Assembly (NCBI GenBank): GCA_963681965.1
Contig: OY820579.1
Coordinates: 832,001-896,000, forward strand
DNA: 64,000 nt
Direction: 5' to 3'
DNA from: a bacterium
Lineage (GTDB): Bacteria > Electryoneota > JAOADG01
Of the stretch, positions 46,555 through 55,025 are shown one piece after another; the first letter of the stretch is position 1; each line of letters begins with the position of its first letter. The notes under the pieces were generated by a model that was given only the letters and a program-made list of their open reading frames with translations, was not told the origin of the DNA and searched no databases. The position numbers were made by a program, and so were the translations under genes.

Positions 46555-46681
46555 ATTGTCATAAGTAAGTTGTCATCGGAAGCAGGGGCTGACCCCCGCG
46601 TTCGCCCGCAGGAATCTTTTGTAGGTACAGACACTCTTGTCTGTACATGTTCGGCAAAGCCGAACACTGAATCATGACAAT
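46555..46681. repeat. REP-like palindrome cluster 1
   Basis: GCAGGGGC..GCCC (46582-46607), GTAG-GTACAGACA-CTCT-TGTCTGTAC (46621-46646), TGTTCGGC-aaa-GCCGAACA (46648-46666), bounded by ATTGTCAT...ATGACAAT. Confidence 0.7.
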
Positions 46682-51931: not shown

Positions 51932-52300
51932 GTAGCGGCGTTTCCCCGCGCTCGCCCGTTCTTGTATCTTGTATCTTGTATCCTGATTTTGTCTTTGCGA
52001 GGAAAACCTTGCGGCAGCGAAGCGGCAAGGTTTAGCGAACACCGATGAATCTTGTAAAATATTAGGTTCGCAACATTCGAAGGGCACAACCGTGTGCGCC
52101 CGAAGAGACGAAGCAATCTATCTTTTCATTTTCCGTAGGGGCGAACCACAAAGTGCTCACCGAAGGTAATCGCATTCGCCCCTCGGCGGTGCCGTTGGCA
52201 CCGCTCTCGGTTCGTTCGCGAACGAACCCTACAATACAGGAATGGCGGACTGAAGTCCGCCGCTACAGAATAACGGGCGGGCGTGGGAGCCCGCCCCTAC
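51932..52300. repeat. REP-like palindrome array 3 with heptamer repeats and nested element
   Basis: GTAG units at 51932 and 52135; (TCTTGTA)3 at 51960-51980; palindromes at 52079, 52186, 52209-52232, 52244-52266 and 52275-52300, the last three ending in CTAC. Confidence 0.85.
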
Positions 52301-52313
52301 TTCACAATATGAA

Positions 52314-55025
52314 TTACTTTAACAACACGATTTTCTGTGTCTTGCTGAACGTTCCCGCCTGCAAGCGAACAAAGTATGTTCCACTCGCCAATCGCGAGCC
52401 ATCGAGCAATACGCGATATGTTCCGGCACGCTGTTCGCGCTGCACCAGCGTCGATACTTCACGACCCATCAAGTCGTAGAGACGGAGATCGACGTGTGAG
52501 GTGATCGGAAGAGAATAGGAGAGCGTGGTGGTAGCGTTGAAGGGGTTAGGGTAATTTTGAAGAAGAATGTATTTCAAAGGTAGATTTTCGAATACACGCG
52601 ATACCTCCGAAGTATCAATACGAATGTAGGTAATGAAACAGTCGCTTAAACCACCATTATAGGTAGTATCAAAGCCATTATTTGTAATCGGAAAATTAAT
52701 GCTACTCGTCCATCCTCCAACAACGATGTTACCATTTTCTAGTTTTACGATTGATTTTCCCATCTCTTGACCAGATCCACCCAAGAATGAACTGTATAAG
52801 TAACAATTACCCGCACTGCTTAAGTGCGCAATAAAAGCATCTGAAACATCACCATTATAAGATTCATCGAAACTTCCTGCAGTGGTGATAAACGATGAGT
52901 CAGTATTTCCAGTAATAAATAACCCATCATTATTATCATTAAGTATACGGACGTAAGAAGAAAAGCCAATAAACGTACTATATGTTAAAGAATGCAGCGA
53001 CGAATCCAATTTCGTGATAAATCCTGATTTGTTTTGATAGACTGTGTCTAAGGAACCTGAAGTCACTGGAAAATCTGGGCTGGTAGTACAGCCTGAAACA
53101 AAAATGTCACCACGATTCCCAATTTTTATGTCTGTACCGCAATCATCGCCATTCCCACCAAGGTAAGAACTAGCCAGTAAATGATCTCCTGTGAGGTCGA
53201 AGCGCGAAACGATACAATCCATAGAATCGTTACCATTTCTATGATAGATAGTATCGAAAGCTGATGAAGTGGTCGGATAATCGTGACTACTGGTTTGCCC
53301 AGTAACTTGAATGGAACTACTGTCGCGACTAATTGCAAAAAGATGCTCATATGAAGAACCACCAATATATGTACTTACAGTAAAATTTGTTGCGCTTCCA
53401 TTGATATGTGTGATGAAGCCATCGTAATATCCATTATAACTTGTATCATAACAGTCTATTATGATTGGGAAATCAGTACTTATTGTATGTCCACAAATAA
53501 TTGCTCCGCCTTCTCCATCACCAGATAATCCTGTAGCACCATCAAAATTAGAACCGCCAAATAAAGTACTGTAGATTAACCGCGATCCAGTATTGTTCAA
53601 TCGAGTCAGGAAAAAATCGCTTCCCCCCCATAATTGAATTCCATTAGTATGAGGAAAATTTGAACTTGATGTCTCACCAGCAATAACTGATCCTTCATTT
53701 CCATCATTCACAATTCCGTACCCAATATCCATACCACTTCCACCAATAATTGTACAAAATTCGAGCTGAGAGTTTGATATATTTAGCCTAACAACAAAGC
53801 ACTCAAAACTGCCATTTAACGTCGTATCGAATGCTCCTGGTGTGACCGGAAAATTTTGCGGATCTCCGGAAATTACACCCGTAGCAACAATACTAGAGTT
53901 ATCGATATTAGTTAGACCATTAACTATCTCACCACCAGAACTACCGATATATGTACTATACACCAGCGGATCGATCCTCAGCGTTTGTGACGCATCATAC
54001 CCATTTGGCAAATCGATGGTGAAGAGATTTTCTGACACGAGTCTGAATTGTGCCGTAACAGCGTTTCCGGAGGTGCCATTCGCAGTGGTTTGGTATGCCC
54101 CCGGAATTTTCATTCGCAATTCACCGAGGGAAGTGGGAAGCGACAGTTCATTCGATAATCGGAGGTCGGACACTCCTGTCCGACTCCTATTTGTGATAGA
54201 AATAATTGAGTCGACGGACAAGAGTGTCCGTCCTCCGCCTGCTATCGGTGCTTCCAACCCTTCGCACACCATTCGGATTTGTTTCGGATCGGCACCGGGA
54301 TGTACCACAAAATCGAATTCGAGATGACCCTTGCTCTCATAACATTCGACATCGATTCCCTGCCAGACGTCATGATACACTACGCGTGTAAAGTTCCGGC
54401 AATCCGGTGCCCATTTCGAAGAATCATTACCCAAGAAATAATTGTTGTGCCACGATAATTCACCTTGTGCATCAATCCACTTCGCTTGCGCGAAGGGTAG
54501 GTCGGAATTTATTCCGACATCCTCTTGTGTCGTGCATTTATCCGTAGGGGCGTATCGCATACGCCCTGTGGGCGCGAACGCGCCCAGATTGGTTGGTGCA
54601 TCTTGATCGGATAGGGGCGAATGCGATTGCCTTCGGCGAGCACTTTGTGGTTCGCCCCTACGGGAATCAATAAATTTAAATTTGAGGGCGTGGGATTTTA
54701 ATCGGCGATGTTGGATACGATCATCGGGATCGAATCGTTTATCATTAAGGGACACGGGCGGTTCGCGAACCGCCCCTACCAAAGAGGAAGAATCGATGAC
54801 GGATGTTACGAGGGTGACACCATCGCGCTCAAGGAACCAGGTGAAGCCGTCATGGCGGACTTCGCATTTGTAGAGCACAGAGGAATCCCACTGCCCCTTG
54901 TTCTCGGTAAATTGGACCGGGTGCGGAAGGCGCGTGGATTGCACACTCACGGTAAATCCCGTCGTAGTGCCGACCGACAACATTACCAGAATAATGACAA
55001 GCTTCTGCAGTGCGAGGTGGCGCAT
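52314..55025 (-). CDS. Secreted SBBP/beta-propeller repeat protein with T9SS-type C-terminal sorting domain
   Basis: Signal peptide; FTENKGQW, NYFLGND.SKW, LEFDFVVHPGADP, IDPLVYSTY; repeated YST..GG..D and G.T.S.DFP.T..A.DT units; C-terminal QNYPNPFN...YDLMGREV..L...LASGTYFVRL...TQKIVLLK. Confidence 0.88.
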   Translation of the reverse strand: MRHLALQKLVIILVMLSVGTTTGFTVSVQSTRLPHPVQFTENKGQWDSSVLYKCEVRHDGFTWFLERDGVTLVTSVIDSSSLVGAVREPPVSLNDKRFDPDDRIQHRRLKSHALKFKFIDSRRGEPQSARRRQSHSPLSDQDAPTNLGAFAPTGRMRYAPTDKCTTQEDVGINSDLPFAQAKWIDAQGELSWHNNYFLGNDSSKWAPDCRNFTRVVYHDVWQGIDVECYESKGHLEFDFVVHPGADPKQIRMVCEGLEAPIAGGGRTLLSVDSIISITNRSRTGVSDLRLSNELSLPTSLGELRMKIPGAYQTTANGTSGNAVTAQFRLVSENLFTIDLPNGYDASQTLRIDPLVYSTYIGSSGGEIVNGLTNIDNSSIVATGVISGDPQNFPVTPGAFDTTLNGSFECFVVRLNISNSQLEFCTIIGGSGMDIGYGIVNDGNEGSVIAGETSSSNFPHTNGIQLWGGSDFFLTRLNNTGSRLIYSTLFGGSNFDGATGLSGDGEGGAIICGHTISTDFPIIIDCYDTSYNGYYDGFITHINGSATNFTVSTYIGGSSYEHLFAISRDSSSIQVTGQTSSHDYPTTSSAFDTIYHRNGNDSMDCIVSRFDLTGDHLLASSYLGGNGDDCGTDIKIGNRGDIFVSGCTTSPDFPVTSGSLDTVYQNKSGFITKLDSSLHSLTYSTFIGFSSYVRILNDNNDGLFITGNTDSSFITTAGSFDESYNGDVSDAFIAHLSSAGNCYLYSSFLGGSGQEMGKSIVKLENGNIVVGGWTSSINFPITNNGFDTTYNGGLSDCFITYIRIDTSEVSRVFENLPLKYILLQNYPNPFNATTTLSYSLPITSHVDLRLYDLMGREVSTLVQREQRAGTYRVLLDGSRLASGTYFVRLQAGTFSKTQKIVLLK
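54161..54779. repeat. Seven REP-like palindromes inside the coding sequence of the SBBP/T9SS gene
   Basis: 54161-54187, 54213-54236, 54497-54518, 54544-54566, 54569-54586, 54613-54661 and 54756-54779; six have a GTAG/GGAG foot; the reading frame stays open. Confidence 0.85.

What the first reader, a model, noticed from the sequence alone, without database searches (positions are those of the whole stretch)
54161..54779. Several different REP-like palindrome families inserted in frame in one secreted-protein gene
Seen: the 5' third of the 903-aa SBBP/T9SS gene holds seven palindromes at three sites, all translated without a stop. Site 1 is 54756-54779 (VGAVREPP, about aa 83-90). Site 2 is 54497-54661, four units (RRGEPQSARRRQSHSP, GAFAP, GRMRYAPT, VGINSDLP). 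Site 3 is 54161-54236, an inverted pair (GGRTLLSV...SRTGVSDL). The 49-bp unit at 54613-54661 is the reverse complement of the intergenic unit at 52135-52183, except for one compensatory pair (G-CCGAAGG-C vs A-CCGAAGG-T). The 54161/54213 pair is related to the intergenic unit at 46621. Established: GTAG-footed REPs are normally extragenic and linked to RAYT (Y1/HUH) transposases; coding palindromes are known mainly as Rickettsia RPEs. Inference: the insertions fall between conserved blocks of the N-terminal domain (after VTSV, after LKFKFI, after CEGLEAP), probably surface loops. The gene may be a REP landing pad where repeated REP gain and loss diversifies a surface protein. No other CDS in the window shows this.
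Basis: partly seen in the sequence, partly recalled or inferred. Interest (0 to 1): 0.85.

Follow-up and report, generated by a model that had tools for sequence, protein, structure and literature searches.

The report
REP hairpins translated inside secreted-protein loops
Small selfish DNA hairpins (REPs) that normally sit between genes are read in frame at three floppy loops of a large family of secreted proteins in this bacterium, and the loops differ from copy to copy.

Summary
The 903-aa gene (52314-55025, minus strand) has a DUF7948 N-domain, a beta-propeller and a T9SS sorting tail. It holds 6 perfect hairpins in 54100-54850, against 0.08 expected, and none in the rest of the gene.

The hairpins belong to genome-wide GTAG/CTAC-footed REP families. 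My 16 patterns found 791 instances, mostly extragenic. Four RAYT-like genes are each flanked by their own REP family.

The genome has 25 close paralog loci. In the 20 I analysed, all 92 REP instances lie in the same three loops: 10.1 per kb there, 0 in the rest of those genes, 0.19 genome-wide. Loop content differs strongly between paralogs, and site 3 carries at least five unrelated architectures plus one empty state. Distant homologs have short, insert-free loops. Sampled relatives carry other hairpins at the same loops. AlphaFold gives pLDDT below 50 within the N-domain fold only at these loops. Five loci are damaged, four with lesions at the loops.

Best reading: REPs colonised permissive loops, and selection keeps the reading frame. 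Adaptive diversification is not shown. This is a new variant of known intragenic REPs/RPEs. This scan earlier noted a similar case on other DNA (e1-1126526).

The parts
52314..55025 (-). 903-aa gene: signal peptide, DUF7948 N-domain, beta-propeller, T9SS C-terminal sorting domain
54756..54779 (-). Site 1: one family-C REP (perfect 10+10 palindrome with a GTAG foot), read as aa 83-90
   Evidence: I7; 76 exact genome copies of the 20-mer
54612..54661 (-). Site 2, unit 1: 49-bp composite palindrome. It is the reverse complement of 52135-52183 apart from one compensatory pair.
   Evidence: (I6)
54569..54586 (-). Site 2, unit 2: family-M palindrome, almost confined to this gene family (8 of 9 instances in long ORFs)
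   Evidence: (I11)
54544..54566 (-). Site 2, unit 3: family-D REP with a CTAC foot, the family that flanks RAYT3
   Evidence: (I10)
54497..54518 (-). Site 2, unit 4: family-A REP with a CTAC foot, the family that flanks RAYT2. Present at this position in 14 of the 20 paralogs analysed.
   Evidence: (I2)
54160..54237 (-). Site 3: REPIN-like inverted doublet (two hairpins inside 23-nt outer arms). It folds as one long hairpin of -47.3 kcal/mol, z -8.4.
   Evidence: (I1, I8, I9)
52135..52300 (+). Extragenic cluster of about five CTAC-footed REPs just downstream of the gene's stop
46621..46646 (+). Extragenic family-G3 REP related to the site-3 arms

Best explanation
The palindromes are ordinary mobile REP/REPIN elements of a REP-saturated genome. 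The genome carries four RAYT-type transposase genes, each flanked by its own REP family. Together with other small repeats, REPs have repeatedly entered three inter-strand loops of the DUF7948 N-domain in a family of 25 T9SS-secreted beta-propeller paralog loci.

The loops tolerate extra residues, so the elements are translated as in-frame, probably disordered loop peptides. Three processes make the loops hypervariable:
- new insertions;
- deletions between REPs, or excision of a doublet;
- exchange of N-domain segments between paralogs.

The process itself does not preserve the frame. Copies hit out of frame decay, and selection on the strongly conserved N-domain core keeps the rest open.

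Shown here: REP identity, RAYT association, confinement to the three loops, differences between paralogs, absence from distant homologs, and lesions at the loops in broken copies. Inferred: translation, RAYT-driven mobility, and neutrality of the loop peptides.
For: REP identity:
- 791 instances of 16 patterns. Most families have 0-40% of copies in ORFs of 600 nt or more, against 83.5% of random positions, and carry CTAC/GTAG feet.
- RAYT1 scores 94.3 bits on NF047646 (cut-off 80) and is flanked by family B. RAYT2, RAYT3 and RAYT4 are flanked by families A, D and E.

Confinement to the loops:
- All 92 REP instances in the 20 paralogs analysed lie in the three loops (9,075 nt). None lies in the other 44,760 nt.
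- 46% of loop bases have 3 or more matches outside the family loci. The empty sites of par17 have none.

Variation:
- Site lengths are 87-258, 96-414 and 48-237 nt. Site 3 has at least 5 unrelated architectures plus an empty state.
- The same REP family is read in two frames or orientations at different sites.

Ancestral state:
- 18 of 36 non-own homologs in A1 have 22-25 aa across the site-3 window, as par17 does.

Recurrence:
- One sampled homolog from each of G001, G003 and G014 has hairpins of other kinds in the same loops; the G001 and G003 homologs show GTAG/CTAC feet at some of them.

Structure:
- Apart from the signal-peptide linker (19-34) and one 3-residue stretch at the domain's end (353-355), pLDDT below 50 in the N-terminal part falls only at 81-106, 124-174 and 264-287, between strands.

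Selection:
- N-core amino-acid identity is 0.89, with 0.36 difference at 4-fold sites.
- 20 of 25 loci keep one open frame.
- The damaged loci show a REP-to-REP deletion, a 1-nt deletion inside an inserted element, a 79-nt excision of the doublet, an IS inside a site-1 palindrome, and a truncation at site 2.
Against: - No expression or proteomic data were available, so translation of the REP peptides is inferred from selection only.
- The hairpin arms of the site-3 doublet are far less variable than the spacer between them: 2 of 32 columns are polymorphic against 33 of 91, Fisher p 0.0011. A purely passive, decaying insert does not predict that.
- Families G1, G2 and M are almost confined to the gene family, so for those an extragenic origin is not shown.
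- RAYT-like genes also occur in G027 and G026, whose sampled homologs lack inserts. RAYT presence therefore does not explain which lineages carry loop REPs.
- The 1-nt frameshift at G000:C1:3753794-3754854 could be an assembly error.
Confidence: 0.78

Rival explanations
1. Adaptive diversification. REP gain, loss and shuffling at the three loops is selected because it diversifies the exposed surface of a secreted or cell-surface protein family. This would be a REP-based variation system.
For: - The proteins are T9SS cargo.
- Loops differ even between paralogs whose C-parts are close: the clade of par14, 18, 2, 1, 10 and 15 has site-1 lengths of 111-174 nt and site-2 lengths of 96-282 nt.
- The same loops are expanded with other hairpins in sampled relatives.
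- The N-domain core is conserved while the loops are free to vary.
Against: - No test of positive selection was possible.
- The peptides are low-complexity and modelled as disordered.
- The same few modules recur, rather than open-ended variety.
- A neutral tolerance model plus frame selection explains all counts.
- Di Nocera et al. argue that insertion of REPs into a variety of unrelated proteins speaks against functional constraints, and suggest such insertions may be neutral (PMC3733652, passages read).
Confidence: 0.2
2. The hairpins work at the nucleic-acid level inside these genes. They could be recombination or gene-conversion sites between paralogs, RAYT recognition sites, or mRNA structures that pause translation or protect the message. 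The encoded peptides would then be a by-product.
For: - Arms of the site-3 doublet are nearly invariant in 15 paralogs, at third codon positions too (2 of 12 polymorphic, against 15 of 29 outside the stems). There are 8 spacer haplotypes, and each hairpin is perfect in 14 of 15.
- Compensatory stem changes alter the amino acid but keep the pairing.
- The doublet folds at -47.3 kcal/mol.
- N-domain and C-part histories are decoupled, as expected if recombination is frequent.
- Deletions in broken copies run from REP to REP.
Against: - The third-position contrast alone is weak (Fisher p 0.079).
- The paralogs are not independent samples.
- Recent spread of the arms, or arm-centred conversion, would mimic constraint.
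- There is no RNA or recombination data.
Confidence: 0.15
3. Artefact or pseudogene. The long ORFs are open by chance or are dead genes, and the palindromes are really extragenic.
For: - REP arrays elsewhere in the genome stay open for more than 200 codons without being genes.
- 5 of 25 family loci are damaged.
Against: - The signal peptide lies upstream of the loops and the T9SS sorting domain downstream, so the loops must be read through for the protein to be exported.
- The N-core has 0.89 amino-acid identity against 0.36 difference at 4-fold sites.
- 20 of 25 loci keep one frame across all three loops.
- The model is confident on both sides of every loop.
Confidence: 0.03

Closest known systems
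Intragenic GTAG-tagged REPs (Di Nocera et al. 2013, PMC3733652; passages read)
   Same: GTAG-footed short palindromes of RAYT-bearing genomes lie wholly inside ORFs as singles, dimers or clusters. Dimers and grouped repeats encode 20-30 aa, and clusters 43-82 aa. One cited case has different REPs at about the same site of recB in two Xanthomonas species.
   Different: There the hosts are scattered, unrelated genes, many in DNA repair. The authors take that as arguing against functional constraints and suggest the insertions may be neutral. Here nearly all deep in-frame REPs of the genome sit in one 25-locus secreted paralog family, at three fixed loops. Several REP families occupy each loop, inserts reach 414 nt per loop, the architecture differs between paralogs, and sampled homologs from a second genus and a second family also carry hairpins in the same loops.
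Rickettsia palindromic elements (RPE), 'selfish DNA in protein-coding genes'. Ogata et al. is recalled; it is cited as refs 13 and 14 in PMC3733652.
   Same: Palindromic repeats inserted in frame in ORFs that likely encode functional proteins, tolerated at the protein level.
   Different: As described in the passages read and from recall, RPEs are not reported with a flanking RAYT and are spread over many unrelated genes. I did not compare sequences with RPEs, so membership is not claimed.
REPIN-RAYT systems (Bertels and Rainey 2011, PMC3116915; Nunvar et al. 2010, PMC2817692; only the search listing and abstract starts were seen)
   Same: Inverted REP doublets that fold into one long hairpin; RAYT genes flanked by their cognate REPs; high copy number in intergenic space.
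   Different: As I recall, REPINs are described as extragenic. Here a REPIN-like doublet is a translated 25-aa loop in 15 of the 20 paralogs analysed, and its arms are conserved at all codon positions.
Earlier notes of this scan on other DNA: e1-1126526 (Omnitrophota giant secreted paralogs) and e1-1578222 (CPR GT39 loop)
   Same: Different hairpin repeats read in frame at one loop of paralogous secreted or membrane proteins.
   Different: Those are AI notes that I did not check. Here there are three loops, 25 loci, demonstrated RAYTs and broken copies.

Membership tests
GTAG-tagged REP / REPIN-RAYT system | Short (about 20-40 bp) palindromes with a GTAG/CTAC tetranucleotide at one end | tested here: met
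   Flank tallies of families A-F show CTAC 3' feet or GTAG 5' feet. The in-gene and downstream units are shown.
GTAG-tagged REP / REPIN-RAYT system | High copy number, predominantly extragenic | tested here: met
   791 instances of 16 patterns. Per family, 0-40% lie in ORFs of 600 nt or more, against 83.5% of 5000 random positions. G1 and G2 are exceptions.
GTAG-tagged REP / REPIN-RAYT system | RAYT (Y1/HUH) gene flanked by its cognate REPs | tested here: met
   NF047646 scores: 94.3 bits (cut-off 80) for RAYT1, then 78.9, 64.3, and 41.5 plus 27.8 for the others, all below the cut-off. The flanking REP families are B, A, D and E.
GTAG-tagged REP / REPIN-RAYT system | Inverted doublets able to fold as one long hairpin (REPIN) | tested here: met
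   Site 3 has 23-nt arms, 91% complementary, 32 nt apart. The fold is -47.3 kcal/mol, z -8.4.
GTAG-tagged REP / REPIN-RAYT system | Mobilisation by the RAYT | not testable with these tools
   Only indirect evidence: several unrelated REP architectures at one loop and a 79-nt excision of the doublet in one broken copy.
In-frame palindromic insertions of the RPE kind | Element lies in frame inside an ORF that still encodes a functional protein | tested here: inconclusive
   The frame is kept in 20 of 25 loci and the core is under purifying selection. There is no expression or protein data.
In-frame palindromic insertions of the RPE kind | Insertion falls in a surface loop and leaves the fold intact | tested here: met
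   This rests on a model only. The low-pLDDT segments 81-106, 124-174 and 264-287 lie between confident strands. Insert-free homologs align across the loops.
In-frame palindromic insertions of the RPE kind | Sequence relationship to the Rickettsia RPE families | not tested
   No RPE sequence was compared. Membership is not claimed.
DUF7948 / T9SS type A cargo | Pfam PF25778 N-domain and a Por_Secre_tail C-terminal domain | tested here: met
   PF25778 at 148.9 bits and PF18962 at 40.1 bits; TIGR04183 at 45.2 bits.

The most novel reading that the evidence does not exclude
The in-frame REPs are not passive passengers. In this lineage REP/REPIN hairpins may act as conserved recombination or transposition modules that shuffle, add and remove loop cassettes among about 25 secreted paralogs. 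That would be a REP-based system for varying protein loops, acting at the same three DUF7948 loops in more than one genus.
Probability: 0.15. Interest if true: 0.85.

Novelty: new variant of a known kind. Interest (0 to 1): 0.6.

Why it matters
Whether palindromic selfish DNA inside genes is only tolerated, or is also a source of new protein sequence, has been argued since the Rickettsia RPEs were found. Known cases are mostly single inserts in unrelated genes.

This genome offers many natural replicates in one place. There are 25 paralog loci and three defined loops. Empty, singly filled and multiply filled states sit side by side. Several REP families have identifiable RAYTs. Broken copies show what the process costs. 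Sampled relatives show hairpins in the same loops.

That makes several questions directly testable by comparative long-read genomics, proteomics and loop-swap experiments: tolerance versus benefit, insertion versus recombination, and hairpin-level constraint.

Tried and rejected
- A 12-mer repeat catalogue was too noisy to define families. I replaced it with a perfect-hairpin catalogue.
- The tree of the N-domain core was unresolved: 0 starred branches out of 16. Gains and losses could therefore not be placed on it. The C-part tree cannot be used to count loop changes, because N-domain and C-part histories are decoupled.
- Sequencing runs: no RNA holder was listed. The four DNA holders, from 2 studies, are short Logan contigs that break at the repeats. 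Their joints, for example a 79-base skip at 54165-54245, mirror the paralog architectures of the same genome and add no independent or strain information.
- Rfam returned only a sub-threshold miRNA-precursor hit on the site-3 hairpin (27.3 bits against a gathering score of 44). I read this as chance.
- The fold search named only the beta-propeller part (CylK, PorZ and others). It gave no lead on the N-domain's function.
- RAYT-like genes were found in 5 of 5 relatives tested, including two whose sampled homolog has no insert. RAYT presence therefore does not discriminate.
Whether those hairpins are multi-copy REPs there remains open.
- No paper mentions DUF7948 (0 papers). A search on palindromic elements, in-frame insertion, surface proteins and paralogs listed nothing describing this (15 of 312 listed, titles and abstract starts only).
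Full report
**Observation**

The flagged region lies in a single 903-aa ORF, 52314-55025 on the minus strand. The protein matches DUF7948 (PF25778, E 2.8e-43, split into three stretches) and the T9SS sorting domain (TIGR04183). Its C-terminal two thirds are modelled as a beta-propeller, with the CylK propeller as the best structural match.

The peptide positions are right: aa 83-90, 122-177 and 264-289. Region 54100-54850 holds 6 perfect hairpins (stem >=8, loop <=8), against a mean of 0.08 in 300 shuffles. The other 1786 nt of the gene hold none.

The 49-bp unit at 54613-54661 is the reverse complement of the extragenic unit at 52135-52183 apart from one compensatory pair. The unit at 46621 is a stem variant of the site-3 arms.

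**What the palindromes are**

The window lies in a 4.24-Mb single-contig genome. A catalogue of perfect hairpins gave about a dozen multi-copy families. Sixteen patterns, allowing up to 2 mismatches, found 791 instances.

Most families carry a CTAC or GTAG foot. They are depleted from long ORFs: 0-40% of copies per family lie in ORFs of 600 nt or more, against 83.5% of random positions.

The genome has four RAYT-like genes:
- RAYT1 passes NCBIfam's REP-associated tyrosine transposase cut-off (94.3 bits against 80).
- The others score 78.9, 64.3, and 41.5 plus 27.8 bits, all below the cut-off.
- Each gene is flanked by a different REP family: B, A, D and E.

Four of the seven units in the gene (families C, D and A, and the 49-bp unit) have many matches outside the gene family. 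The second site-3 arm has a few. The family-M unit and the first site-3 arm have almost none. Earlier notes of this scan on the same genome also describe REP saturation. I tested that point independently here.

**The gene family**

A tblastn search with a REP-poor N-domain found 29 hits, which make 25 close-family loci plus 3 distant ones. I aligned the N-domains of 17 paralogs. The core blocks are about 90% identical, while three positions vary enormously: after VTSV..., after LKFKF., and after CEGL.... In 20 paralogs the three sites span 87-258, 96-414 and 48-237 nt.

All 92 REP instances found in these 20 genes lie in the three sites:
- 10.1 per kb in the sites (9,075 nt);
- 0 in the remaining 44,760 nt of these genes;
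- 0.19 per kb genome-wide.

Site 3 has the following states:
- an empty state (par17);
- the doublet seen in the window, in 15 paralogs;
- two other kinds of inverted doublet;
- two different composite clusters.

The insertion points differ by a few codons between these states. The same REP family is read in different frames or orientations at different sites. Besides REPs, site 2 of several paralogs holds a longer repeated element that also has tens of copies elsewhere in the genome.

**Homologs elsewhere**

A database search gave 578 hits. I aligned 48 of them with the query (alignment A1). Of the 36 that are not from this genome, 18 have only 22-25 residues across the site-3 window, and distant ones have 26-27 across site 2. 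Against that baseline the window protein carries about 25 and 57 extra residues there.

Fifteen of the 36 have site-3 windows longer than 30 residues. The longest is 255 residues and is made of REP-like peptides of other kinds.

I could read the DNA of one sampled homolog from each of four relatives:
- a same-genus genome (G001), a same-family genome (G003) and a genome of another family (G014) each have hairpins in the same loops, and the G001 and G003 homologs show GTAG/CTAC feet at some of them;
- a fourth (G027) has none.

The peptides are therefore not conserved protein sequence, and the loops are invaded in more than one lineage. I could not establish whether the relatives' hairpins are multi-copy in their own genomes.

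**Structure**

AlphaFold2 on alignment A1 gave a mean pLDDT of 79.3. Apart from the signal-peptide linker (19-34) and a 3-residue stretch at the end of the domain (353-355), the only segments below 50 in the N-terminal part are 81-87, 89-106, 124-143, 145-174 and 264-287. Those are the three REP sites, and each lies between confident strands. This is a model, not a measurement.

**Selection and damage**

- N-core amino-acid identity averages 0.896 over 136 pairs (0.89 on the 161-codon core), while its 4-fold sites differ by 0.36. This indicates purifying selection.
- The C-part averages 0.449 identity.
- Synonymous divergence of the two parts is decoupled. Par4 and par5 differ by 0.14 in the C-part and 0.26 in the N-core. 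Par8 and par12 differ by 0.74 and 0.23. The genes are therefore mosaics, and loop differences between close C-parts may come from recombination as well as insertion.

Twenty of the 25 loci keep one open frame through the N-domain. The five damaged loci are:
- one nonsense codon (par9);
- a deletion running from one REP to another within site 2;
- a 1-nt deletion inside the long site-2 element, which could be an assembly error;
- a copy with a nonsense codon, an IS inserted in a site-1 palindrome, and a 79-nt excision of the site-3 doublet;
- a copy truncated at site 2.

REP-related change at the loops is thus not intrinsically frame-preserving. The open frames reflect selection.

**An unexpected point**

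In the 15 paralogs that share the site-3 doublet, 2 of 32 stem columns are polymorphic against 33 of 91 other columns (Fisher p 0.0011). At third positions alone the figures are 2 of 12 against 15 of 29 (p 0.079). Each hairpin is perfect in 14 of 15 paralogs, although there are 8 spacer haplotypes.

Compensatory stem changes that alter the amino acid also occur. The doublet folds as a -47.3 kcal/mol hairpin.

The paralogs are not independent samples, and arm-centred conversion could mimic constraint. I therefore treat this as a lead for a nucleic-acid-level role, not as a result.

**Interpretation**

The best-supported reading is that mobile REP/REPIN elements and other small repeats colonised three permissive loops of an expanded secreted-protein family. 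They are translated, they turn over by insertion, excision, deletion between REPs and exchange between paralogs, and selection filters for frame.

A neutral model explains all the counts.

**Relation to what is known**

Intragenic GTAG REPs are described in the literature. Dimers and grouped repeats encode 20-30 aa and clusters 43-82 aa, mostly in unrelated housekeeping genes. The authors take that spread as arguing against functional constraints and suggest such insertions may be neutral (PMC3733652, passages read). In-frame RPEs of Rickettsia are cited there.

What is different here is the concentration in one paralog family, at three fixed loops, with several REP families per loop, architectures that differ between paralogs, and hairpins at the same loops in sampled relatives. 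I found no paper on DUF7948, and nothing describing this in a second search (listing only). This scan noted a comparable case on other DNA (e1-1126526), which I did not check.

**Limits**

- There is no RNA or protein evidence.
- The public runs gave only short contigs.
- One step on the relatives' genomes was not completed.
- Supplements of PMC3733652 (its list of intragenic REPs) were not read. They might hold secreted paralog families that I am not aware of.

Noticed in passing
G000:C1:345430-346359 (+), outside the window: A RAYT-like gene, flanked by family-E REPs, itself carries four tandem 84-nt units in frame between its HUH motif and its catalytic-Tyr motif. Each unit holds a family-E REP. 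The ORF stays open for 310 codons.
   Followed up: partly
G000:C1:1543574-1545254, outside the window: An IS element with its own transposase ORF and terminal inverted repeats sits inside a site-1 palindrome of a broken family copy. This echoes the known use of REPs as IS targets.
   Followed up: no
G000:C1:2281972-2282577, 3792398-3793162, 4197791-4198444, 3746409-3747071: Extragenic tandem REP arrays with periods that are multiples of three (99, 285 and 165 nt) stay free of stop codons for 200-255 codons. This is probably a by-product of selecting for long ORFs in my screen.
   Followed up: no
G000 paralogs, e.g. 520364-523297 versus 578420-581476: The N-domain and the beta-propeller part of the family have decoupled histories. 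The N-core is about 90% identical in all pairs while C-parts range from 31% to 91%. This suggests domain-level recombination or conversion between paralogs.
   Followed up: partly
window 52135-52300: A cluster of about five different CTAC-footed REPs starts 14 nt after the gene's stop codon. A similar cluster follows the paralog at G000:C1:1445288.
   Followed up: no
G000:C1:25959-27062, 2256578-2257687, 3280790-3281548: Three other long ORFs have REPs about 165 nt before their stop codon. These may be REP-derived C-terminal tails. I did not check them against protein families.
   Followed up: no
protein table: The family proteins of this genome are each recorded on 2 contigs, the longest being 4,339,467 bases, whereas the genome held here has 4,244,867 bases. 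A second, longer assembly of the same or a very close organism may exist, and it could show REP-related length differences.
   Followed up: no
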